Virus record (IMG/VR): IMGVR_UViG_2541047795_000004 | Length of the DNA stretch: 44,950 bases | Reading direction: 5' to 3' (one strand) | From: a virus | Taxonomy: Duplodnaviria; Heunggongvirae; Uroviricota; Caudoviricetes | Shown: positions 9,791-29,121 of the stretch, one piece after another | Layout of the letters: every line of letters begins with the position of its first letter | Position numbering within the stretch: the first letter of the stretch is position 1 | Notes under the pieces: model-generated | What the model was told of the DNA's origin: nothing | Seen by the model: the letters and a program-made list of their open reading frames with translations, nothing else | Databases searched by the model: none | Program-made: the position numbers and the translations under genes

Positions 9791-10537
9791 ATGAAAAATA
9801 TTGCGACAGGCGGCGTTCTGGAACGTATCCGCAGACTGGCCCCGCCACATGTAACCGCGCCATTCAGGACGGTGGCGGAGTGGCGCGAGTGGCAACTTGC
9901 AGAAGGCCAGAAACGTTGCGAGGAGATCAATCGCCAGAATCGTCAGTTGCGGGTGGAAAAAATTCTGAATCGCTCCGGCATCCAGCCGTTGCACCGCAAA
10001 TGCTCGTTTTCGAATTACCAGGTGCAGAACGACGGCCAGCGATACGCGTTGAGCCAGGCGAAATCCATCGCCGATGAACTGATGGTCGGGTGTACAAATT
10101 TTGCGTTTAGCGGAAAACCTGGTACCGGAAAAAACCATCTGGCGGCGGCTATCGGGAATCGCCTGCTGAAAAACGGTCAGACAGTGATTGTGGTTACCGT
10201 GGCTGATGTTATGAGTGCTCTACACGCCAGCTATGACGACGGGCAATCAGGCGAAAAATTTTTGCGGGAACTGTGCGAAGTGGATCTGCTGGTTCTTGAT
10301 GAAATTGGCATTCAGCGCGAGACAAAAAACGAGCAGGTGGTACTGCACCAGATTGTTGATCGCCGGACAGCGTCGATCCGCAGCGTGGGGATGCTGACAA
10401 ACCTGAACTATGAGGCCATGAAAACATTGCTCGGCGAGAGGATTATGGATCGGATGACCATGAACGGCGGGCGATGGGTGAATTTTAACTGGGAGAGCTG
10501 GCGCCCGAATGTTGGTCAGCCAGGAATTGAGAAGTAA
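9791..10537 (+). CDS. ydaV: DnaC-like helicase loader (IstB-like AAA+ ATPase, YdaV-like)
   Basis: Walker A SGKPGTGKNHLAAAIG and Walker B DLLVLDEIG; directly follows the initiator-like gene. Confidence 0.85.
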   Translation: MKNIATGGVLERIRRLAPPHVTAPFRTVAEWREWQLAEGQKRCEEINRQNRQLRVEKILNRSGIQPLHRKCSFSNYQVQNDGQRYALSQAKSIADELMVGCTNFAFSGKPGTGKNHLAAAIGNRLLKNGQTVIVVTVADVMSALHASYDDGQSGEKFLRELCEVDLLVLDEIGIQRETKNEQVVLHQIVDRRTASIRSVGMLTNLNYEAMKTLLGERIMDRMTMNGGRWVNFNWESWRPNVGQPGIEK

Positions 10538-11724: not shown

Positions 11725-11884
11725 GCCAAATTAATAATCGGAACTTGGTGAAGTGAAAGAGAAAGCATAACCCAAATCTGAATAATTAAATTCAGCACTG
11801 TGAATAAAATAGAGTCCTTAACCGGAGGAATTCCTGCACTCTCAAATCATCAGGAGGCCGCCCGAAAAGGCGGTGGAGATAATA

Positions 11885-12403
11885 ATGGAAATAACTAAAG
11901 AACGATTATTGGAAATAGCAAATCTTAGTGATGGGGCATTAAGTGATGGGAGAATTATTTCTCCTGATGCTTATGAATCAGTTACAAGTATAGAAATAAT
12001 AACGATGGCTAGGATGCTTCTTGCGCGATTCAAAAAAGAATATAAAAAACAGGTAGATAGCAATGCTAATATATATGATATTTTGGACGGTTGGGGAGCC
12101 TGGGCTGTAGCTGAAAATAGTTCTATTGATTGGCAGGAAATAGCTGATAAATATAAAAATGTTGTTCCTCATGGTAAAAAATCACGTCGTCAGTGCAGCA
12201 ATGATGAAGGGGGTATAATTGATACCTGCATGTTGAGGCTTAAACAATATAGGATAGATGACTATGAGTTAATTATCGCTCATTTTGTTATGGGAGTTTC
12301 ATTGCGTTGTTTAGCTAAGATAAACGAATGTTCAGATGGTAAAATAAGGAAAAAAATGCAAATGGCAATGGGATTTATTGCAGGTTGTATCTATTACCGT
12401 TGA
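11885..12403 (+). CDS. Q-like antiterminator paralog (QuuD/phage-82-type resemblance), AT-rich
   Basis: WGAW motif followed by a Cys-containing segment and a C-terminal helix, parallel to the Q gene at 16732; GGTGGAG Shine-Dalgarno before the ATG at 11885. Confidence 0.45.
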   Translation: MEITKERLLEIANLSDGALSDGRIISPDAYESVTSIEIITMARMLLARFKKEYKKQVDSNANIYDILDGWGAWAVAENSSIDWQEIADKYKNVVPHGKKSRRQCSNDEGGIIDTCMLRLKQYRIDDYELIIAHFVMGVSLRCLAKINECSDGKIRKKMQMAMGFIAGCIYYR

Positions 12404-12433: not shown

Positions 12434-13867
12434 TTAACTACAGTAACTATTGATTAAGTGAGAACTGAGCCAAGAGGTAATTGCATTCGTAGCATGTTCA
12501 TCAAGCATTGAGAATCCTAATATGATCATTATAAATGAAATCAGCAAAGTCAGAATCACAACGAATGTGGCTATAATCTGATAAGCTTTGTATGCTTCTC
12601 TTAATGGTGTGACTGCAAGATTCTCATAGTCAGTATCATCAAGAAAACCATATAGTTTATCTCTCCAGACTAGCCTAGTATTATCAAGTATCTTAAAGTA
12701 ATTTTTATTTATGAAGAGAGTTGTAACCTGAGATATAAAAATATATATAGATAACGCGAAGAACATATATGGGAATATGTTATTGGTTATATTAATCTTT
12801 GATGCGTCTAGCGCATATTTTATTGCAAATAGACTTATAACCAGAGCCAGATCTTTCCAAAGAGCGGATGTGATGTCTTTAGACTGACTTATTATTTTTT
12901 GCGTGTCTTCAGCTAAGGTTTTCCTTAGATCGGACAGAGATTTAATAGTCTCTCTGCTGCTAGCGCGAATGTGGGCCTTATATAGTAATTTTGCTGACTC
13001 AAAGGCCATAGGGAGTTTTTTTGGTAAACCCTCACAGAAGGATACATACTCTGGCCATTCTCGTGCTAACTCACTTGTGAAGAAAGTATGTTTGAGTTCA
13101 ATCTCATTGCCCTCAATAAAGATCCAGTTTATTACAGTTTGTAAAACTGAATAGTCGGAAAGCAGAATGTCTGGATCTCCATAAATTAATTTTTTTGGTG
13201 GCTTTCCAGTTAAACAAATTGATTTCTTTTCATCTGCTAATAATTCATTAACGAGAGTGCGACAAAGCATATTGCAGGAAACTTGTAACCATTTTTTGAA
13301 AAAGTTGTCCTCTGCCTCAGGCATTTTATAAAGTACCCAAGGAGCTATATCAGATGCAGGCATGAACTCACTAGAATAGAATTTAACGTAGCTCTGTAAA
13401 TTGATTGAAGTTCGTACGGTTTCATTAGATTCAATTTTTTCTGGAGCATGGTTCCATGGCTCAACAGAATATCCTAAAGTTTCAAATCCATGTTTCAAAC
13501 CGAGAATATTCACTTTATTGGTTATTGATACTAAATCATCATTGTGTAGAAAAACATTCCACCCTTCGAGCGTAAAAATATACCTGTTATTTTCGAATGC
13601 AATGCATTTTAGCGTAATGTTAAGTTTATCACCTTCACTGCATGACGATGGTTTTACTTCATCATTACAGTCATCTTTAACAGTAATTTCAATCCAATTT
13701 GGTACGTTTTCGTAAACGTACTGCCAAAGAATGAGTGCATCTTTGTCCATTTTGGCAGAAATTAGAACGCGCGCAGAATCATTTTTTATTGATTCTGATG
13801 CCAAAAATTCAGGGTCTTTCCTTGACGCCTGTATAGACTCATCGATTTTTTGAAGTATCGATGTCAT
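12434..13867 (-). CDS. Cassette gene B: uncharacterised 477-aa protein, large soluble N-terminal domain plus C-terminal transmembrane helices
   Basis: Hydrophobic helices IFPYMFFALSIYIFISQVTTLFI and IIATFVVILTLLISFIMIILGFSML near the C-terminus; GAGGA Shine-Dalgarno 10 nt before the ATG at 13867; overlaps gene A by 29 nt; AT-rich. Confidence 0.7.
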   Translation of the reverse strand: MTSILQKIDESIQASRKDPEFLASESIKNDSARVLISAKMDKDALILWQYVYENVPNWIEITVKDDCNDEVKPSSCSEGDKLNITLKCIAFENNRYIFTLEGWNVFLHNDDLVSITNKVNILGLKHGFETLGYSVEPWNHAPEKIESNETVRTSINLQSYVKFYSSEFMPASDIAPWVLYKMPEAEDNFFKKWLQVSCNMLCRTLVNELLADEKKSICLTGKPPKKLIYGDPDILLSDYSVLQTVINWIFIEGNEIELKHTFFTSELAREWPEYVSFCEGLPKKLPMAFESAKLLYKAHIRASSRETIKSLSDLRKTLAEDTQKIISQSKDITSALWKDLALVISLFAIKYALDASKINITNNIFPYMFFALSIYIFISQVTTLFINKNYFKILDNTRLVWRDKLYGFLDDTDYENLAVTPLREAYKAYQIIATFVVILTLLISFIMIILGFSMLDEHATNAITSWLSSHLINSYCS

Positions 13868-14897
13868 CAGTAATAATCCTCGCAGTAGTAACAATAATTT
13901 GTTTTCGCCCATCATCTAAGTTTCTTATTTCTGGACGGTCATCTTCATTATAACTAATTACTACACTTTCTGCAGTTTCAATTTTTCGTCTTGGTGGTTT
14001 ATGAATGCCATCTGCTTTTATAGTAAAGGATTCGCCTTCAATACCAGCATTTTTTGTTTGAGTTTTGAATGTGTTGAGAATTGGTGATTTTTCATCTAAC
14101 GGCCCAAAAATGCTGGTCAATAACGGAGAAGCATCTTCAGGATTATATTCGAAATCAGCTCTGCTTAAAACTTCATATATTTTATTTACGCCGCTTTTTT
14201 GAATTGACTCTGGCAATAATTCTTTATGCCTTTTGAAGGTTATTTTCAGCGCATCAATAAGCTTATTGCAAAGTTCAATTTCAGAGTTGACTCTTTTAAC
14301 ATTTAAGAAGCCTTTAAAATATCCTGAAATATTGGTTCTTTTACTCCTGTCTTTTACAATAACTTTCCCGCCTTTCCCACTTGGATCAAGTTGAATTAAC
14401 GCTATTTTTTGCATTGCCTCAGCTTTTTTTACGAAAGTTTCATGAAATCTTTCTAAAGTAGGCATTTGTTCTTCAGATAACTTTTCGTCAAGAACATAAC
14501 GAACCACATCTTCATTATCGTATTTTATAATTGCATAGAATTTTTCCTTATCTGAAACCAATTCAAATAAGAAAAAGCATCCCATACTCGTGTTACCGCT
14601 AGAATGGTGTGACTGAAAATCACTGGCCAGTAGCTTCGATTGTTCTGTAAAACAATTAGCTTCAGCATCTGCTTTATCTCTAATGATACGCAGGATTCTT
14701 TCGGTATTTGAATTCTCCAGAAAAGTGAAAAGATTTCCTTTCAGTGAAGATTTGATACGTTCAAGAAAAAAATCCACATGCTGAACTGGTTTTATTTCTT
14801 TGAGAAGTGTCGGTGCTTCAAGATTCTTACCTACAACGTGAAAGATCATTTTATTAATGACTAAATTTTGTACGTCTTGTTCAGAAAGGAAACTCAT
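13839..14897 (-). CDS. Cassette gene A: uncharacterised 352-aa cytoplasmic protein, tentative weak resemblance to NA37/YejK-type nucleoid-associated proteins
   Basis: GGAG Shine-Dalgarno before the ATG at 14897; no transmembrane segment; the NA37 resemblance is by eye only and unverified. Confidence 0.7.
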   Translation of the reverse strand: MSFLSEQDVQNLVINKMIFHVVGKNLEAPTLLKEIKPVQHVDFFLERIKSSLKGNLFTFLENSNTERILRIIRDKADAEANCFTEQSKLLASDFQSHHSSGNTSMGCFFLFELVSDKEKFYAIIKYDNEDVVRYVLDEKLSEEQMPTLERFHETFVKKAEAMQKIALIQLDPSGKGGKVIVKDRSKRTNISGYFKGFLNVKRVNSEIELCNKLIDALKITFKRHKELLPESIQKSGVNKIYEVLSRADFEYNPEDASPLLTSIFGPLDEKSPILNTFKTQTKNAGIEGESFTIKADGIHKPPRRKIETAESVVISYNEDDRPEIRNLDDGRKQIIVTTARIITDDIDTSKNR

Positions 14898-16445: not shown

Positions 16446-16735
16446 TGGTGGATTTACGTAAAGCGGCGCGGGGGCAGATGTGCACCGTCAGAATTCCTGG
16501 CTACTGCAATCACGATCCGGAAACGTCTGTGCTGGCGCATTACCGACTGGCGGGAACGTGCGGAACAGCGACAAAACCACACAATATGCAGGCGGCGATT
16601 GCCTGTAGCTCATGCCACGATCTAATCGACGGGCGGGTAAAAACCATCGATTACACCAAAGAAGAATTACGCCTGATGCATGCAGAAGGTGTTCTTCGCA
16701 CACAAGAAATCTGGAGAAAGGAGGGATATTTATGA
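16445..16735 (+). CDS. YbcO-like Cys-rich putative nuclease (DUF1364-like), 96 aa
   Basis: Cys pattern C..C....C...CSSCHD and size characteristic of nin-region YbcO-type proteins. Confidence 0.55.
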   Translation: MVDLRKAARGQMCTVRIPGYCNHDPETSVLAHYRLAGTCGTATKPHNMQAAIACSSCHDLIDGRVKTIDYTKEELRLMHAEGVLRTQEIWRKEGYL

Positions 16736-17274
16736 TTTACCCAACGAATACAGGAAAAAGCGGAGAACACCTTCGTCTCACCACGCTGGAAAGTGTCTGG
16801 ATTCAGGGAAAACTACGTATGTGGGGGCGCTGGTCGTATATTGGCGGCGGTAAGACGGGGAATATGTTCAACCAGTTGTTGGCCTCTAAAAAGCTGACAA
16901 AAACGGCAATTAACGAGGCGCTCCGGAGGATGAAAAAAGCAGGTCTGAACAAGTCTGAACTTGAGGCTTTTTTGCGGGATATGATTAACGGTAAGCAAAA
17001 GAGCTGGCTGGCGCATTGTACTGATGCAGAGGCGTTATGTATTGATCGGGTCATAAGTGAGGTGCTGGCAGAGCATCCAGGATTGATTAGCGTCCTTCGG
17101 CAACGGTATGAGGGGCGGGGGATGACCAAACGCAAAATGGCTGAATTGCTAAATGATGCACACCCAGAGTGGTGTTTTAGCACATGCGAAAAGCGAATTG
17201 CTAATTGGTTGGCCGTTGCTGAGTATGCGCTATACATTCCCATGCGAGAATCATTCGCTCAAAAAACGGCTTGA
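16732..17274 (+). CDS. Late-gene antiterminator Q, 180 aa
   Basis: ATG at 16732 with GGAGGG Shine-Dalgarno, overlapping the upstream stop; WGRW motif; immediately upstream of a promoter-like region, a terminator, tRNAs and the lysis cassette. Confidence 0.6.
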   Translation: MIYPTNTGKSGEHLRLTTLESVWIQGKLRMWGRWSYIGGGKTGNMFNQLLASKKLTKTAINEALRRMKKAGLNKSELEAFLRDMINGKQKSWLAHCTDAEALCIDRVISEVLAEHPGLISVLRQRYEGRGMTKRKMAELLNDAHPEWCFSTCEKRIANWLAVAEYALYIPMRESFAQKTA

Positions 17275-21466: not shown

Positions 21467-22255
21467 ATGAGCGAGAAATTAAAGATAGTCTATCGCCCAT
21501 TACAAGAATTGTCACCGTATGCGCACAACGCCAGGACGCACAGTACTGAGCAGGTGGCACAACTGGTAGAAAGTATTAAGCAATTCGGCTGGACTAATCC
21601 GGTGCTGATTGACGAAAAGGGCGAAATTATTGCGGGTCACGGTCGTGTTATGGCGGCTGAAATGCTCAAAATGGATTCTGTTCCGGTCATTGTTCTGTCT
21701 GGCCTGACGGATGAGCAGAAAAAGGCGTACCGCCTGGCAGATAATCGCCTACCGATGAATGCTGGCTGGGATGAAGATCTATTGCGGATGGAGCTGTCGG
21801 ACCTAATCAATGCTGATTTTGATGTCTCCCTGACAGGCTTCGGCCCGACAGAAATTGATGAACTGTTGACGGATGTTTTGCCCGGTACAGGAAATAAGGA
21901 GGAGCCGTATACGACGAAAATTGATACGCCTGTTTATGAGCCGTCGGGCGGTAAACCGGATATCAGTGAACTGTACGACGATACGAAAACTCAGGAGCTG
22001 ATCAGCCGGATACGTTCGGCGTCCCTTGATCCTGATATTGAGAAATTCCTCCTGTGTGCGGCAGAACGTCACACGGTGTTTAATTTCAGCAGAATTGCGG
22101 ACTATTACGCTCATGCCCCCGCTGAAATTCAGTGCCTTTTCGAGGAGTCGGCGCTGGTGATCATTGATTATCAGCAGGCTATTGAAAATGGATTTGTCCG
22201 AATGACGCAGCGCATGGTGGCGATCATGCATAGCGGGGAGGAGGAATATGCGTGA
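21467..22255 (+). CDS. ynaK: ParB-like nuclease domain protein (full-length YnaK-like)
   Basis: N-terminal ParB/Srx-like motif (GHGRVMAA..., PVLIDEKGEIIAG); lies just upstream of the terminase genes. Confidence 0.7.
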   Translation: MSEKLKIVYRPLQELSPYAHNARTHSTEQVAQLVESIKQFGWTNPVLIDEKGEIIAGHGRVMAAEMLKMDSVPVIVLSGLTDEQKKAYRLADNRLPMNAGWDEDLLRMELSDLINADFDVSLTGFGPTEIDELLTDVLPGTGNKEEPYTTKIDTPVYEPSGGKPDISELYDDTKTQELISRIRSASLDPDIEKFLLCAAERHTVFNFSRIADYYAHAPAEIQCLFEESALVIIDYQQAIENGFVRMTQRMVAIMHSGEEEYA

Positions 22256-23180
22256 TGATTTTTGCGCCTTTATTCTGACTCACGGGCGACCGGACAAAGT
22301 TCTGACTTACCGGACGTTGCGTCGTGCTGGCTATACCGGGAAAATTTTTATCGTTGTTGATGATGAAGATAAGACACGGCATCAGTACATGGCTGAATTT
22401 GGTGAACAGGTGCTGGTATTTTCCAAAGCCGATATTGCCAGTCGTTTTGACGAAGCCGATAATTTTGGTGACCGCCGCTCAATTTTTTACGCCCGTAATG
22501 CCTGTTTCGACCTGGCAAAACTGGTCGGGTGTAAATACTTCATTCAGCTCGATGATGATTATCACGAGTTCCAGTTTCGGGTGGATCGCAACTATGACCA
22601 GGCCTATTTCCCGATAAGGAAACTGGATGCGATCCTTTCTGAAATGCTGGCGTATTACGAATCAATACCCGCGCTTTCCATCGCTATGTCGCAGGGCGGG
22701 GATTTTCTTGGTGACAATGGCGGCCATGCTTCGTGGGTGAAACGCAAGGCAATGAACAGCTTTATCTGTTCGGTTGATCGACCGTTCTCATTCATGGGGC
22801 GCATTAACGAGGATGTGAATACGTACACGAATCTCGGTCGCTGTGGTGAATTGTTTATGACGATCGGTGCTGTCCAGTTAGGGCAGAAACAGACGCAGAA
22901 AAACAGCGGCGGAATGACCGAGCTGTATCTGGATTCCGGAACCTACGTTAAAAGTTTTTACTCCGTCATGTATGCGCCGTCGTGCGTAAAAATCTCACTG
23001 ATGGGTGCCAGCCATAAACGCATTCACCATCAGGTCACCTGGAACAACGCTGCAGTAAAAATCCTTCACGAAAAATACAGGAAGAAGACACCCTGCATAT
23101 CAATGGGGGTGACAAATGATTCCGTATTCGAAAGTCGAGTCTCTGGCAGCGTGCCGGATGACTGCACAACAAATCGCTGA
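22248..23180 (+). CDS. Putative GT-A-fold glycosyltransferase-like protein, 310 aa
   Basis: N-terminal KIFIVVDDEDK and downstream FIQLDDDYHEF (DxD-like) motifs; overlaps the ParB-like stop by 8 nt. Fold assignment is by motif only. Confidence 0.5.
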   Translation: MRDDFCAFILTHGRPDKVLTYRTLRRAGYTGKIFIVVDDEDKTRHQYMAEFGEQVLVFSKADIASRFDEADNFGDRRSIFYARNACFDLAKLVGCKYFIQLDDDYHEFQFRVDRNYDQAYFPIRKLDAILSEMLAYYESIPALSIAMSQGGDFLGDNGGHASWVKRKAMNSFICSVDRPFSFMGRINEDVNTYTNLGRCGELFMTIGAVQLGQKQTQKNSGGMTELYLDSGTYVKSFYSVMYAPSCVKISLMGASHKRIHHQVTWNNAAVKILHEKYRKKTPCISMGVTNDSVFESRVSGSVPDDCTTNR

Positions 23181-23367
23181 CGTTCTGGATGTTGATCTGA
23201 ACCGACTGAAAGAAAATCGGGAAGCAATGACAGATTTTTATGCGGCCATCCGTAAGGGCAGAGCGAAAGGTGAAGCCGAGTTACGAGCGGCATTGTTTAA
23301 GCTTGCCAGAAAAGGGGATGCCTTTGCTCTGCGCGAACTACTCAGGGTGGATAAAAATCAGGACTAA
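23116..23367 (+). CDS. Small HTH-like protein (start uncertain; possibly ATG at 23158)
   Basis: 83-aa ORF overlapping the 3' end of the previous gene; helix-rich, basic; weak ribosome-binding site. Confidence 0.35.
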   Translation: MIPYSKVESLAACRMTAQQIADVLDVDLNRLKENREAMTDFYAAIRKGRAKGEAELRAALFKLARKGDAFALRELLRVDKNQD

Positions 23368-23370
23368 CTG

Positions 23371-24465
23371 ATGAGCAGACCGGACTGGGGGGCGTTGCAG
23401 CAGGAGTATATTGCTGAATACACCCGCTCCGGTATATCTCCGGTGGCATGGTGTGAAGCAAGGGGACTGAACTACGCAACAGCCCGTCGTTACATCAAAA
23501 AAACTCCGAAAAATGCGCAGAAAGAAATGCGCAAAACTGCGCAAAAAAGTGCGCGAAAAAAAACTGCGCAGACTGCGCAAAGGCAGAACGGAAAATCTCA
23601 GAAAAAAAAGGCTGTATCCGATGCACTCCTGATTGAGGGGGACACGGAAGAAATTTCGTTCTGCCCCGATGAATTCGGTATTTCTGACCAGCAGGCAAAA
23701 TTCGCCATGTTGGTTGCTCAGGGGAAAAAGCCGACAGAGGCATACCGACTGGCTGGTTATGAGGGGCAAGGTGCGACAGCTAACAGCAACGCCAGCCGTA
23801 TGCTTAGAAATGCCAGGGTTTATCGTGCTATCAGCTACTTCCGCAATCAGTACCAGAAACGCTATACCGCAGACCTGGATTTACTGGTGAGCCAGTTGAT
23901 GGCCATTGTCCAGGCCGACCCCAATCAGTTGGCACAATTTCGCCGTGTTAACTGCCGTTATTGCTGGGGCGAGAATCATCTCTACCAGTGGCGTGATATT
24001 GCAGAATTCGATAAGGCTGCGGCACAGGCCTCCAGAGATGGTAAACCCGAGCCGGAATATGGAGGCCTCGGCTTTGTTGATAACGCCATACCCAATCCGG
24101 ATTGCCCGAAGTGCTGCGGTGAGGGAACGGGACAGCTTTATATGGCTGATACCACACTGCTTGATGGGGATGCGCGGCAATTATATGCAGGGTCAAAGCT
24201 CGGAAAATACGGTGTTGAGATCCTGCTGGAGGATAAGGCTGCCGCCCGGCGTGAATTGTTGCGTTTGCTTTCTGCTGGCGGGGCATTATGTGCAGATAAA
24301 CGGCTACAGGAACTGGAAATTGAACGGCGCAGAATAGAAAACCAGAAGCTGCGCAAAGAGATCGAAACGGTGGAGGATAATGAACATCCCCAGCCTGTGG
24401 CGATCAATATTAATGTGGTTGATGCCAGATTAAGGAGTGATGAAGATGATCTCTCCGACGCTTAA
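23371..24465 (+). CDS. Terminase small subunit, 364 aa (HTH plus Terminase_2-like core plus Cys-rich C-terminal region)
   Basis: Core FCPDEFGISDQQAKFAMLVAQGKKPTEAYRLAGYEGQGATANSNASRMLRNARV resembles small-terminase domains; directly upstream of the large subunit. Confidence 0.75.
   Translation: MSRPDWGALQQEYIAEYTRSGISPVAWCEARGLNYATARRYIKKTPKNAQKEMRKTAQKSARKKTAQTAQRQNGKSQKKKAVSDALLIEGDTEEISFCPDEFGISDQQAKFAMLVAQGKKPTEAYRLAGYEGQGATANSNASRMLRNARVYRAISYFRNQYQKRYTADLDLLVSQLMAIVQADPNQLAQFRRVNCRYCWGENHLYQWRDIAEFDKAAAQASRDGKPEPEYGGLGFVDNAIPNPDCPKCCGEGTGQLYMADTTLLDGDARQLYAGSKLGKYGVEILLEDKAAARRELLRLLSAGGALCADKRLQELEIERRRIENQKLRKEIETVEDNEHPQPVAININVVDARLRSDEDDLSDA
23514..23579. repeat. Cluster of six TGCGCA/TGCGCG motifs at 9-15 bp spacing inside the small-terminase gene
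   Basis: Motif copies start at 23514, 23528, 23538, 23550, 23565 and 23574; the region encodes a basic KTAQ-rich linker. Confidence 0.4.
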
Positions 24466-25747
24466 TGTGCCTCAGGCGCGATTTCTTTCAATGCCCCATA
24501 AATTTAAAGCCTATATTGCTGGTTTTGGCTCGGGCAAAACATGGGTTGGGTGTGGCGGCATATGCAAGGGGATTTGGGAGCATCCAGGTATAAATCAGGG
24601 ATATTTTGCGCCAACGTATCCCCAAATTCGCGATATTTTTTACCCTACAGTGGAAGAAGTTGCTGCTGACTGGGGATTGAACGTAAAAATTAATGAGGGA
24701 AATAAAGAGGTTCACTTTTATTACGGACGCCAGTATCGGGGAACCACTATCTGCAGATCGATGGAGAAGCCACAAACGATCGTCGGTTTCAAAATTGGTA
24801 ATGCGCTGGTGGATGAACTGGATATTTTGCCGAAGGAAAAAGCCAGAACGGCGTGGCGCAAGATAATTGCGCGTATGCGTTATAAGATTGATGGACTTCG
24901 CAACGGTATTGACGTTACAACCACGCCGGAAGGATTCAAATTTGTCTACGAGCAGTTTGTTAAAGCCGTGCGTGAAAAAACAGAGCTGGCCTCACTGTAT
25001 GGTCTGGTGCAGGCATCTACTTTCGATAATGAAAAGAACCTGCCAGCAGATTACATTCCTTTACTTCTTGAATCATACCCTCCAGGGTTGATTAAAGCCT
25101 ATCTTCTAGGACGGTTTACTAACCTGACAAGTGGTACTGTTTACCATCAGTTTGACCGGAAACTGAATAATTGCGAAGAAGTGGAGCAGCCAGGGGAGCC
25201 GATTTATATTGGGATGGATTTTAACGTTGGAAAGATGGCGGGAATCGTCCATGTGCTGCGTTTGGGGCTTCCATGTGCGGTAACTGAAATCATCAATGCC
25301 TACGATACGCCGGATATGATCCGCCTCATTAAAGAACGCTTCTGGCCGTATGACGGGCATGATTACCGGAAAGTGAGGGAGATTTATATTTATCCAGATG
25401 CTTCCGGAGATTCCAGAAAATCAAGTAACGCAAGTACGACGGATATAGCCCAGCTTAAGCAGGCAGGTTTTAACGTTGTGGTGAACAGCTCGAACCCGCC
25501 AGTAAAAGATCGCGTTAACTCAATGAATGCAATGTTCTGCAATGCCAATGGTGAGCGTCGCTATAAAGTTAATGTGAAGCGTTGTCCGGTATATGCCGAA
25601 TCTCTGGAGCAACAGGTCTGGGATGATAAGGGGGAGCCTGATAAAAAATCTGGCAATGATCACCCGAATGATGCCGGAGGTTATTTCATCGTTAAGCAAT
25701 TCCCTATTGTCAAACCGACCGGAAGAGTCACATCACTTCGGATTTAA
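24446..25747 (+). CDS. Terminase large subunit
   Basis: Walker A-like AGFGSGKTW near the N-terminus; AAGGAG Shine-Dalgarno 8 nt before the ATG at 24446 (ORF opens at a GTG at 24437). Confidence 0.85.
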   Translation: MISPTLNVPQARFLSMPHKFKAYIAGFGSGKTWVGCGGICKGIWEHPGINQGYFAPTYPQIRDIFYPTVEEVAADWGLNVKINEGNKEVHFYYGRQYRGTTICRSMEKPQTIVGFKIGNALVDELDILPKEKARTAWRKIIARMRYKIDGLRNGIDVTTTPEGFKFVYEQFVKAVREKTELASLYGLVQASTFDNEKNLPADYIPLLLESYPPGLIKAYLLGRFTNLTSGTVYHQFDRKLNNCEEVEQPGEPIYIGMDFNVGKMAGIVHVLRLGLPCAVTEIINAYDTPDMIRLIKERFWPYDGHDYRKVREIYIYPDASGDSRKSSNASTTDIAQLKQAGFNVVVNSSNPPVKDRVNSMNAMFCNANGERRYKVNVKRCPVYAESLEQQVWDDKGEPDKKSGNDHPNDAGGYFIVKQFPIVKPTGRVTSLRI

Positions 25748-28356: not shown

Positions 28357-29121
28357 ATGAAACTGAAAACGGTCGAGATTAACGGAAAACAATACGCAGA
28401 AATCGATACTGCTGGCCTGCCAGTTTATGTGCACGACGATGGTAAAGAAATCGGCTTCGATGCACCGCTGGCGATAAAAAAAATTACAGAGCTTAATGGC
28501 GAGGCAAAAAATCATCGCCTGGCTAAAGAAGCTGCAGAGGAAAAACTGGCTAAGTTTGCCGCTATCGAAGACCCGAAGAAGGCGATCGAGGCACTGGAAA
28601 TGCTGTCAAAAATCGACCAGAAAAAGCTGATCGATGCGGGACAGGTTGACCAGGTTAAGGCAGAAATTACGAAAAATTTTCAGCAGCAATTAGATGAAGA
28701 AAAGCAACGCTCTCAGATGCTGGAGACGCAGCTTTACGATTCTATGATTGGCGGTAGTTTTGCGGGTTCAAAATATATTGCCGATAAAATTGCGATCCCG
28801 GCAGATTTATTACAAGCCCGCTTCGGGCAGGCATTCAAAGTGGAAGAAGGGAAGATCGTTGCTTATGACGCTTCCGGCAACAAAATTTATTCCCGCGCGA
28901 AGCCTGGCGAACTGGCGCAGTTTGATGAGGCGCTGGAGTTCCTCGTCGAAAATTACCCTCAGAAAGACTACATCCTGAAAGCCAGTGGCAACAATGGCGG
29001 CGGCTCCCGTCCGACACAGCATGATGTTGGTCAGAAAACGATGAAACGCTCTGCTTTTGATGCACTGGATGTTGCAGGTAAGCAAAACGCATTGAAAGAC
29101 GGTATCACAATTGTTGATTAA
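28357..29121 (+). CDS. Putative scaffolding protein, 254 aa
   Basis: Helix-rich, charged protein directly upstream of the major capsid gene; start set at ATG 28357 downstream of the terminator. Confidence 0.5.
   Translation: MKLKTVEINGKQYAEIDTAGLPVYVHDDGKEIGFDAPLAIKKITELNGEAKNHRLAKEAAEEKLAKFAAIEDPKKAIEALEMLSKIDQKKLIDAGQVDQVKAEITKNFQQQLDEEKQRSQMLETQLYDSMIGGSFAGSKYIADKIAIPADLLQARFGQAFKVEEGKIVAYDASGNKIYSRAKPGELAQFDEALEFLVENYPQKDYILKASGNNGGGSRPTQHDVGQKTMKRSAFDALDVAGKQNALKDGITIVD

What the first reader, a model, noticed from the sequence alone, without database searches (positions are those of the whole stretch)
23514..23579. Periodic TGCGCA motif cluster inside the small-terminase gene: candidate pac or binding site
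Six copies of TGCGCA/TGCGCG at 9-15 bp spacing lie in the linker between the HTH and the core domain of the small terminase, in a region also carrying A8 runs. Several pac-type phages place the packaging recognition site inside the small-terminase gene as short repeats. Alternatively the repeat may simply reflect the repetitive basic peptide (KTAQ-like) it encodes.
Basis: seen in the sequence. Interest (0 to 1): 0.4.

Follow-up and report, generated by a model that had tools for sequence, protein, structure and literature searches.

The report
P1-like packaging-site hexamers in terminase gene
Six copies of TGCGCA/G packed into 66 bases of a prophage's small-terminase gene are a conserved DNA signal, not a by-product of the protein, and most likely mark where the phage's packaging enzyme recognises its own DNA, much as in phage P1.

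Summary
TGCGCA lies at 23514, 23528, 23538, 23565 and 23574, and TGCGCG at 23550. All sit inside the small-terminase gene (23371-24465), in codons 48-70, a predicted disordered linker.

The cluster is not chance and not a by-product of the peptide:
- No other 66-bp stretch of the window has more than 2 copies.
- 0 of 200,000 synonymous recodings of the peptide reach 6.

In 49 non-redundant relatives from Enterobacterales to Aeromonas, TGCGCA is kept 244 times against 36.6 expected. It occurs in all three reading frames while the peptide changes.

The motif follows the N-terminal helix-turn-helix (HTH), not the terminase core:
- ..ARRYIK.. goes with TGCGCA.
- ..AKRYIK.. goes with TGCGAA.
- 933W ..ARTRIK.. 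goes with GATCAT.
- P1 PacA goes with TGATCA.

That HTH is homologous to the N-terminus of P1 PacA (hhalign 92.6%). P1's experimentally defined pac site is an array of TGATCA/G hexamers at the same place in pacA.

Best reading: this is the recognition part of a P1-type pac site with a different hexamer, no Dam site, a single cluster, and a different terminase core and large subunit. Binding and cleavage are inferred, not shown. I found no paper describing it.

The parts
23371..24465 (+). small terminase gene (terS), 364 aa
   Evidence: Pfam Terminase_2 E 1.2e-8 over aa 122-316; phrog_51 'terminase small subunit' E 6e-75 over aa 1-364; annotated as terminase small subunit in relatives.
23371..23502 (+). 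coding region of the N-terminal PacA-like helix-turn-helix domain (aa 1-44, ending ..GLNYATARRYIKK)
   Evidence: AlphaFold2 gives three helices (6-20, 24-30, 35-38) with pLDDT 71-84. hhalign against P1 PacA residues 3-41: probability 92.6%, E 4.5e-7. PHROG cross-hits to the PacA family phrog_1711.
23506..23649 (+). coding region of the basic linker, predicted disordered (aa 46-93)
   Evidence: pLDDT below 50 for aa 46-93; peptide TPKNAQKEMRKTAQKSARKKTAQTAQRQNGKSQKKK....
23514..23579 (.). array of six TGCGCA/G hexamers; proposed terminase recognition part of pac
   Evidence: conserved in homologues in three reading frames.
23514..23519 (.). hexamer 1, TGCGCA (codons N48-A-Q)
23528..23533 (.). 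hexamer 2, TGCGCA, in a different reading frame (M53-R-K)
23538..23543 (.). hexamer 3, TGCGCA (T56-A-Q)
23550..23555 (+). hexamer 4, TGCGCG (S60-A-R); reads TGCGCA in most close relatives
23565..23570 (.). hexamer 5, TGCGCA (T65-A-Q)
23574..23579 (.). hexamer 6, TGCGCA (T68-A-Q); mutated to TGCACA in several common E. coli haplotypes
23497..23503 (+). A7 run flanking the array
23556..23563 (+). A8 run inside the array; a frameshift hot spot in database copies
23602..23609 (+). A8 run just downstream of the array
23665..23865 (+). second helical DNA-binding-type domain (aa 99-165), the N-terminal part of the Terminase_2 core
   Evidence: pLDDT 78-88; Pfam Terminase_2; weak PDB sequence hit to a small terminase over aa 108-163.
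24437..25747 (+). large terminase gene (terL), the presumed nuclease and motor that would cut near the array
   Evidence: Pfam Terminase_6N E 1.9e-30 and Terminase_6C E 8e-11.

Best explanation
The hexamer array is the recognition part of the phage's packaging (pac) site, built like the pac site of phage P1. The small terminase carries an extra N-terminal helix-turn-helix domain homologous to that of P1 PacA. This domain is tethered by a basic flexible linker to a Terminase_2-type oligomerising core. Several of these domains in one terminase oligomer would bind the six closely spaced TGCGCA/G hexamers, which are written into the DNA that codes the linker itself. That would mark the concatemer as phage DNA and position the large terminase (24437-25747) to make the first cut nearby, after which headful packaging proceeds. 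Shown here: the array is real, is selected at the DNA level, is conserved across genera, and co-varies with the adjacent HTH. Inferred: physical binding, the position of the cut, and the direction of packaging.
For: 1. DNA-level selection.
- 0 of 200,000 synonymous recodings of the peptide give 6 hexamers; the mean is about 0.6.
- In 49 non-redundant homologous loci, 244 TGCGCA are observed against 36.6 expected under synonymous codon permutation. They fall in all three frames: 178, 56 and 10.
- In a 30-locus class, hexamer columns are as conserved (pairwise identity 0.917) as codon positions 1+2 of the HTH (0.927). Spacers (0.717) approach third positions (0.619).

2. The motif follows the HTH, not the core.
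- About 53 intact loci with helix ..ARR(Y/H)IK.. have TGCGCA as the top hexamer.
- All 10 ..AKRYIK.. loci have TGCGAA or TGCGAATTCGCA.
- 933W ..ARTRIK.. has four (C/T)GATCAT, and P1 ..NTARRYLR.. has TGATCA.
- L090 and L089 differ at 4 of the first 43 HTH residues, including R39K, yet carry different hexamers.
- The Yersinia phage YenM_30.14 TerS has a core 46% identical to the window's but carries AKRY and TGCGAA. The 933W core resembles the L090 core but carries a different hexamer.
- A relative with the same core at 91% nucleotide identity but an unrelated N-terminal HTH (L004) has GTTTCCAC/GTGGAAAC repeats at the same place.

3. Homology to a characterised system.
- hhalign of the N-terminal alignment against PacA: probability 92.6%, E 4.5e-7; reciprocal PHROG hits.
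- The P1 record annotates pac cleavage inside pacA, flanked by 4+3 TGATCA/G hexamers.
- Synonymous disruption of the P1 hexamers lowers P1 packaging about 9-fold (PMC10028697).

4. Decay where the HTH is lost. In Rac-SA53, annotated as a deletion fusion lacking the HTH, only 2 of 5 hexamers remain intact.

5. Context. The gene lies directly upstream of terL, a DUF4055 portal, a MuF-like protein and a P22-coat-like protein. From general knowledge, this head module is typical of headful packagers.

6. Unbiased scan. Of 121 clusters of at least 3 close TGCGCA in IMG/VR, 73 lie beside a PacA-like HTH.
Against: - There are no binding, cleavage or virion-end data for this phage or any TGCGCA-class relative.
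- P1 needs two hexamer clusters flanking the cut, plus IHF. Here there is one cluster, no second one within about 590 bp, and no IHF consensus in 23300-24000.
- Common E. coli haplotypes with an intact terS ORF carry only 4 or 5 intact hexamers. So not all six are essential, or many of these prophages are inactive.
- The R/K-to-hexamer link may rest on few independent evolutionary events, and P1 has ARRY but binds TGATCA, so there is no simple one-residue code.
- TGCGCA arrays also occur in other contexts: intergenic, or beside other HTH proteins.
- Because the hexamer is a palindrome, adjacent copies can pair in RNA.
Confidence: 0.72

Rival explanations
1. The hexamers are binding sites for the terminase's own N-terminal HTH, but they serve something other than packaging initiation. 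Possibilities include autoregulation of terS/terL expression or of late transcription read-through.
For: The co-variation of HTH and hexamer shows recognition, not purpose. HTH domains with arrays of short repeats are also typical of operators and iterons. TGCGCA arrays occur beside non-terminase HTH proteins and in intergenic DNA (L192, L202, L277, L260).
Against: The HTH is always fused to a small terminase, with at least five different cores. Its homologue in P1 acts at pac. The array lies inside the coding region, about 140 bp past the start codon, which is an odd place for an operator.
Confidence: 0.1
2. The element works at the RNA level. Adjacent palindromic hexamers pair into small hairpins in the terS mRNA and modulate translation, stability or frameshifting at the A8 runs.
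For: The RNA fold of 23495-23600 gives three 6-bp hairpins formed by hexamers 1-2, 3-4 and 5-6. The energy is -29.5 kcal/mol against -19.4 for shuffles (z -3.3). A8 runs sit next to the hairpins.
Against: Any array of identical palindromes folds this way, so the z-score is not independent evidence. Odd copy numbers (3, 5, 7) are common. Single hexamer mutations in relatives are not compensated. The sister class uses TGCGAA, which is not self-complementary and occurs as 9 direct copies in Pasteurella phage Pmp11. The P1 homologue is a DNA site.
Confidence: 0.05
3. The array is recognised by another factor. Candidates are the neighbouring ParB-like or glycosyltransferase proteins, a DNA methyltransferase acting on GCGC, a restriction system, or a host protein.
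For: ParB_N (21467-22255) and a TET-associated-type glycosyltransferase (22248-23180) lie just upstream. The P1 hexamers double as Dam sites, and TGCGCA contains GCGC.
Against: The hexamer type tracks the terminase HTH sequence. TGCGCA-class loci from other genera were not checked for a ParB/TAGT pair, and the Klebsiella phage locus L003 has neither upstream of terS. No methyltransferase was found among the window ORFs scanned.
Confidence: 0.06
4. The array has no function. It would be a by-product of a repetitive basic peptide (xAQ repeats) or of replication slippage that duplicated a short unit.
For: Five of six copies encode x-A-Q/R. Copy number varies from 5 to 7 among close relatives by gain or loss of units (L024, L026). 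The linker is predicted disordered.
Against: 0 of 200,000 synonymous recodings reach six copies. 27% of 244 hexamers in homologues lie in other frames and encode unrelated peptides such as L/V/M-R-x and C-A-x. Hexamers are conserved while spacers diverge across genera. The hexamer switches together with the HTH.
Confidence: 0.02

Closest known systems
Phage P1 pac site and PacA (small packase subunit)
   Same: - The recognition elements are several 6-bp near-palindromes, TGNNCA/G. Both systems share the A/G wobble at the last base.
- They are irregularly spaced by 7-15 bp.
- They lie inside the small-terminase gene, just downstream of the DNA coding an N-terminal HTH.
- That HTH is homologous between the two: hhalign 92.6%, reciprocal PHROG hits, shared ..LN..TARRY(I/L)(K/R) motif.
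   Different: - The hexamer is TGCGCA/G rather than TGATCA/G. It has no GATC, so the Dam-methylation control known for P1 cannot apply.
- There is one cluster of six rather than 4+3 clusters flanking the cut.
- No IHF consensus is present.
- The rest of the small subunit is a Terminase_2 core with its own helical domain, not the PacA body.
- The large subunit is Terminase_6N/6C, whereas PacB matches no Pfam family.
SPP1 / SF6 G1P-type small terminase (Pfam Terminase_2) and its pac site
   Same: The core of the window protein belongs to this Pfam family. From general knowledge, SPP1 pac lies at or within the 5' part of the small-terminase gene, contains short repeated boxes and A-tracts, and is bound by the HTH of an oligomeric ring.
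   Different: The window protein has an additional PacA-like HTH and a roughly 50-residue linker in front of the Terminase_2 part. The repeated element is a different, shorter palindromic hexamer. No sequence similarity to the SPP1 pac boxes was tested.
P22 / Sf6 pac sites inside the small-terminase gene
   Same: The pac site is embedded in terS, so the recognition protein and its site are inherited together. The phages are lambdoid, with headful-type head modules; the window has a P22-coat-like protein.
   Different: From general knowledge, P22 pac is a single asymmetric site of about 22 bp in the middle of gene 3, not an array of hexamers. The P22 and Sf6 TerS proteins belong to different families.
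Phage lambda cosB (R1-R3 elements bound by the gpNu1 winged HTH)
   Same: Several repeated short elements next to or in the small-terminase gene are bound by its N-terminal HTH, to position the large subunit for cutting.
   Different: Lambda is a cos system with a defined nick site and 16-bp R elements upstream of Nu1, and it depends on IHF. The window's head module looks like that of a headful packager.

Membership tests
P1-type pac site (PacA-recognised hexamer array) | Small-terminase N-terminal HTH homologous to that of PacA | tested here: met
   hhalign of a 23-sequence N-terminal alignment against PacA 1-60: probability 92.6%, E 4.5e-7, columns 6-44 against 3-41. BLASTP E 0.007. Window TerS hits phrog_1711 (PacA family) at E 2.4e-4, and PacA hits phrog_370 at 1.9e-4.
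P1-type pac site (PacA-recognised hexamer array) | Multiple TGNNCA/G hexamers inside the small-terminase gene, downstream of the HTH-coding part | tested here: met
   Six copies at 23514-23579, codons 48-70. In P1 the hexamers begin at about codon 65 of pacA.
P1-type pac site (PacA-recognised hexamer array) | Two hexamer clusters (4+3) flanking a central cleavage region with an IHF site | tested here: not met
   There is a single cluster; the nearest other TGCGCR copies are at 23330 and 24171. No WATCAANNNNTTR match on either strand in 23300-24000.
P1-type pac site (PacA-recognised hexamer array) | Hexamers contain GATC and cleavage is controlled by Dam methylation | tested here: not met
   TGCGCA/G has no GATC. 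No methyltransferase domain was found in the window ORFs scanned. The related Stx-phage 933W array does contain GATC.
P1-type pac site (PacA-recognised hexamer array) | Terminase binds the hexamers and cuts at the site to start headful packaging | not testable with these tools
   This needs EMSA or footprinting and mapping of virion DNA ends. No paper was found.
Terminase_2 small terminase (SPP1/SF6 G1P type) | Match to Pfam PF03592 above the gathering score | tested here: met
   36.1 bits against a cut-off of 26.1, aa 122-316. The Klebsiella-phage relative scores 101.8 bits.
Terminase_2 small terminase (SPP1/SF6 G1P type) | Single N-terminal HTH directly joined to the oligomerisation core | tested here: not met
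   An extra HTH (aa 1-44) and a disordered linker (aa 46-93) precede the Terminase_2 part.
P22-type pac site | Single asymmetric site of about 22 bp within terS, and a P22 gp3-family small terminase | tested here: not met
   The element is an array of six 6-bp palindromes. The protein matches Terminase_2 and phrog_51, not a P22 gp3 family. The P22 site definition is from general knowledge.
lambda-type cosB | R elements upstream of the small-terminase gene, next to a cosN nick site, with an IHF site | tested here: inconclusive
   The repeats are inside the gene and no IHF consensus is present. A cos nick site cannot be recognised from sequence alone. The head module (DUF4055 portal, MuF-like, P22-coat-like) is unlike lambda's.

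The most novel reading that the evidence does not exclude
The window shows one instance of a portable packaging-specificity cassette. A roughly 200-bp unit encodes a PacA-like HTH and, in the DNA of its own linker, the array of hexamers that this HTH reads. The cassette has been grafted onto at least five different small-terminase cores. It exists in several specificity classes: TGCGCA, TGCGAA, GATCA(T) in Stx phages, and TGATCA in P1. The TGCGCA/TGCGAA pair is separated by essentially one recognition-helix residue (R39/K39). A second, unrelated HTH family shows the same layout with GTTTCCAC or GGTAACCA repeats. If this is right, pac sites and packaging specificity of hundreds of enterobacterial prophages, including Shiga-toxin phages whose array carries Dam sites as in P1, could be read from sequence and re-programmed.
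Probability: 0.45. Interest if true: 0.65.

Novelty: new variant of a known kind. Interest (0 to 1): 0.52.

Why it matters
Few temperate phages of enteric bacteria have a known pac site, yet pac sites set where generalized and lateral transduction start and which satellites can hijack a phage.

This terS module is in 882 of 5,426 complete E. coli genomes. The same HTH-plus-array layout occurs from Enterobacterales to Vibrio, Aeromonas and Pasteurella phages, and in Stx-converting phages.

A sequence-readable rule linking HTH type to hexamer type would:
- let pac sites be predicted;
- give a natural test of a protein-DNA recognition switch (R39K with C-to-A in the hexamer);
- extend the P1 paradigm beyond P1-like plasmid prophages;
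- offer small defined pac cassettes for phagemid or transduction tools.

It does not overturn any concept. Pac sites inside terS, and repeats bound by a terminase HTH, are established ideas.

Tried and rejected
- A protein search with the 50-residue N-terminus returned only fragments under 90 aa, mostly frameshift products at the A-runs. It was no use for diversity. It was replaced by a genome-contig scan with a 4-sequence alignment.
- The full-length protein search gave only close relatives, at least 76% identical. The alignment for structure prediction was therefore shallow and the model poor overall (mean pLDDT 51). I used only the per-segment confidence and ran no fold search.
- PDB sequence searches were uninformative: for TerS only a weak small-terminase hit at E 0.13, for TerL nothing.
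- The viral-contig scan for the pPE4-type N-terminus found only an identical copy. A tblastn of phage records then gave two usable relatives.
- P0053-type proteins read the linker in another frame and then return to frame. They looked like a natural experiment. But their DNA has +1 A in each of three A-runs and both copies come from one sequencing project, so homopolymer error is likely. I do not count this as evidence.
- A search for an IHF site found none. A-tract phasing showed no clear helical period, and hexamer spacings are 7, 9, 12, 14 and 16, not multiples of 10.5.
- Testing whether hexamer loss tracks terS inactivation in 80 close relatives had no power: only 3 complete loci have a broken ORF.
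- Literature searches for TGCGCA with terminase, for pac with 933W, for Rac with pac, and for Stx with headful and Dam found nothing relevant. One search was wasted on PACAP and pancreatic-cancer hits.
- The idea that C-to-T changes in mutated hexamers (TGTGCA, TGCACA) reflect cytosine methylation was dropped: too few events.

Full report
**Observation**

The + strand carries TGCGCA at 23514, 23528, 23538, 23565 and 23574, and TGCGCG at 23550. Start-to-start spacings are 14, 10, 12, 15 and 9 bp. An A7 run lies at 23497 and A8 runs at 23556 and 23602.

The window as a whole is not enriched for the hexamer: 57 matches on both strands against 65 expected. The clustering is extreme, though.
- The other 25 + strand copies never exceed two per 66 bp.
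- Poisson P is about 2e-12 per position.
- None of 200 first-order Markov simulations exceeds three.

**Setting**

The array lies in ORF 23371-24465 (364 aa). This ORF matches Pfam Terminase_2 over aa 122-316 and phrog_51 'terminase small subunit' end to end. Downstream come:
- a Terminase_6N/6C large terminase (24437-25747);
- a DUF4055 portal, a MuF-like protein and a P22-coat-like protein.

Upstream lie TrkG, a ParB_N protein, a TET-associated-type glycosyltransferase and an 83-aa ORF. With the integrase, SieB and Q antiterminators, and TrkG next to the same genes in relatives, the window is a Rac-type lambdoid prophage.

An AlphaFold2 model is poor overall (mean pLDDT 51). It does give a confident three-helix N-terminal domain (aa 1-44, pLDDT 71-84), a stretch below 50 for aa 46-93, and a second confident helical domain at aa 99-165. 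The hexamers code residues 48-70 of that linker.

**DNA or peptide?**

Five hexamers are read as xxT GCG CAx (N/T/S-A-Q/R) and one as aTG CGC Aaa (M-R-K). I resampled synonymous codons for the same 28-residue peptide using the window's own codon usage. The mean was about 0.6 hexamers, and none of 200,000 trials reached six.

Identity by descent from slippage could still explain one sequence, so I collected homologues.
- Eighty close relatives from IMG/VR give 18 haplotypes. Copy number runs from 5 to 7, and some point-mutated hexamers sit in ORFs that are still intact.
- A scan of one genome per species with an alignment of the N-terminal domain gave 66 loci. They span Escherichia, Klebsiella-like genera, Serratia, Pantoea, Xenorhabdus, Pectobacterium, Vibrio and Aeromonas.

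In 49 non-redundant intact loci whose helix reads ..ARR(Y/H)IK.., the 180 nt after the domain hold 244 TGCGCA. Permuting synonymous codons within each gene predicts 36.6. The copies lie in all three frames (178, 56 and 10), encoding TAQ/SAQ/PAQ, L/V/M-R-x or C-A-x.

In a 30-locus class (320-340 aa), pairwise identities are as follows:

| Columns | Pairwise identity |
|---|---|
| Hexamer columns | 0.917 |
| HTH codon positions 1+2 | 0.927 |
| HTH third positions | 0.619 |
| Spacers within the array | 0.717 |

The result is the reverse: DNA kept and peptide scrambled.

**What reads it?**

The hexamer type follows the adjacent N-terminal domain, not the terminase core.

| Recognition helix | Top hexamer |
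|---|---|
| ..ARR(Y/H)IK.., about 53 intact loci | TGCGCA |
| ..AKRYIK.., all ten loci | TGCGAA, often as TGCGAATTCGCA; none has TGCGCA |
| Pasteurella phage Pmp11, AKRY and deeply diverged | nine TGCGAA, in two frames |
| 933W and other Stx phages, ..NTARTRIK.. | four (C/T)GATCAT at 12-bp spacing |

Further points:
- L090 (AKRY) and L089 (ARRY) differ at only 4 of the first 43 residues, one of them R39K.
- The window core is 46% identical to that of Yersinia phage vB_YenM_30.14, which carries AKRY and TGCGAA.
- The 933W core is related to the L090 core, yet their hexamers differ.
- A relative with the same core at 91% nucleotide identity but an unrelated N-terminal HTH (L004) has GTTTCCAC/GTGGAAAC repeats at the same position. 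That motif recurs after a 42%-identical HTH in Pseudomonas phage Cruim01. Enterobacter phage ENT1 has GGTAACCA instead.
- In Rac-SA53, annotated as a deletion fusion that lacks the HTH, only two of five hexamers remain intact.

**Link to a characterised system**

The N-terminal domain is homologous to the N-terminus of P1 PacA.
- Both share ..LN..TARRY(I/L)(K/R).
- BLASTP gives E 0.007.
- hhalign of a 23-sequence alignment against PacA 1-60 gives probability 92.6% and E 4.5e-7.
- PHROG profiles cross-hit between the PacA, 933W-TerS and window-TerS families.

The P1 record annotates the pac cleavage points inside pacA. They are flanked by four TGATCA copies upstream and by TGATCG plus two TGATCA downstream, starting about 20 codons after the HTH. 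P1 pac is described as 161 bp with seven TGATCA/G hexamers carrying Dam sites and an IHF site. Synonymous disruption of the hexamers lowered P1 packaging about 9-fold (PMC10028697).

The window array shares several features with it: a six-base near-palindrome, the A/G wobble at the last base, irregular short spacing, and the position within the gene. The 7-bp pair TGATCAtTGATCA of P1 has a counterpart, TGCGCAnTGCGCA, in many relatives.

**Differences from P1**

- The hexamer has no GATC, and no methyltransferase was seen in the window ORFs scanned.
- There is one cluster, not two flanking a cut.
- There is no IHF consensus.
- The body of the small subunit is a Terminase_2 core with its own helical domain.
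- The large subunit is Terminase_6N/6C, whereas PacB matches no Pfam family.

This is therefore a variant of the P1 design, not a P1-type packase.

**Rival readings**

- RNA structure. Adjacent palindromes fold into three hairpins (z -3.3), but any such array would. Odd copy numbers, uncompensated mutations and the non-palindromic TGCGAA class all argue against it.
- A regulatory role for the same protein-DNA contact cannot be excluded.
- Another reader, such as the ParB-like protein, the glycosyltransferase or a methylase, fits poorly with motif changes that track the terminase HTH.
- An unbiased IMG/VR scan for three close TGCGCA found 121 clusters. Of these, 73 lie next to a PacA-like HTH. 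The rest include Ala-rich tandem repeats, intergenic arrays, and one terminase-like HTH of the other family followed by six TGCGCA. The array is strongly, but not exclusively, tied to this domain.

**Verdict**

The element is best read as the recognition part of a P1-like pac site with a new hexamer, carried on a portable HTH-plus-site cassette (confidence about 0.7). Binding, the cut position and the packaging direction are inferred.

I found no paper describing it. The module is common: 882 of 5,426 complete E. coli genomes carry it. It is a new variant of a known kind and of moderate interest.

Noticed in passing
L151 1630-1690 (phage 933W, AF125520 about 28904-28964); also L152: The small terminase of Shiga-toxin phage 933W and its relatives has the same PacA-like N-terminal domain (helix ..NYNTARTRIK..). 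It is followed by four (C/T)GATCAT repeats at 12-bp spacing that encode IDHEIDHKTDHEIDHD. Each repeat holds a Dam site, as in the TGATCA/G hexamers of P1 pac, and one or two TGCGCA copies follow downstream. This suggests a P1-like, possibly methylation-controlled pac site in Stx phages. I found no paper on it.
   Followed up: partly
L004 2855-2915; L159 about 150-260; L158 about 740-830: A second, unrelated terminase N-terminal HTH family (..SHTTINNRARKEGW..) shows the same layout. An E. coli-type prophage deposited as an Actinobacillus phage has GTTTCCAC twice plus its inverse GTGGAAA(C) twice. Pseudomonas phage Cruim01 has the same motif, and Enterobacter phage ENT1 has GGTAACCA three times plus one inverted copy. 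L164 from IMG/VR has this HTH type followed by six TGCGCA.
   Followed up: partly
window 21467-23180: Directly upstream of terS lies a gene pair: a ParB_N-domain protein (262 aa, phrog_620, also similar to the N-terminus of a phage DNA methyltransferase family) and a TET-associated-type glycosyltransferase (310 aa, Pfam TAGT, phrog_842). No TET/JBP dioxygenase or methyltransferase was seen in the window ORFs I scanned. This may be a DNA-modification module of unknown substrate.
   Followed up: partly
window 23116-23367: An 83-aa ORF between the glycosyltransferase and terS overlaps the end of the former. It matches only the middle part (positions 145-218 of 319) of phrog_309 'terminase small subunit'. 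It is either a remnant of another terS or a small accessory DNA-binding protein. Relatives annotate a 69-aa version.
   Followed up: no
window 23497-23503, 23556-23563, 23602-23609: The A7/A8 runs in the linker are frameshift hot spots. The protein database holds dozens of truncated products of about 86 aa from this gene, some from complete genomes. It also holds 365-aa variants with +1 A in all three runs, which read the linker in another frame and then return to frame. Whether these are real variants, slippage or sequencing errors is unresolved.
   Followed up: partly
window 23953-23964 and 24103-24114: The terminase core carries two CxxC pairs (CRYC at aa 195 and CPKC at aa 245) that are conserved in relatives. 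This looks like a four-cysteine zinc-ribbon-like insertion within the Terminase_2 region. There is only a weak, sub-threshold DnaJ_CXXCXGXG hit in relatives.
   Followed up: no
window 12434-14897 (- strand): Two reverse-strand genes sit between the two Q antiterminator-like genes (11873-12403 and 16612-17274). One is a 493-aa protein with no Pfam match. The other is a 352-aa protein matching the 37-kDa nucleoid-associated protein family (NA37). They look like an inserted cargo (moron) or defence pair.
   Followed up: no
L002 2912-3940 (phage Rac-SA53): The Rac-SA53 terS is annotated as a fusion of two genes by deletion. It lacks the PacA-like HTH, and three of its five remaining hexamer positions are mutated (TTCGCA, TGCGCT, TGCCCA). 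This is consistent with decay once the reader domain is gone.
   Followed up: partly
L192 about 10434-10520; L202 about 1050-1170 and L277 about 1490-1600; L260 about 1892-1950: TGCGCA arrays also occur outside terminase genes in IMG/VR contigs. One follows a winged-helix-like ORF and is interleaved with a longer repeat (L192). Others are intergenic (L202, L277), and one lies just upstream of a start codon (L260). These may be iterons, operators or upstream pac sites.
   Followed up: no
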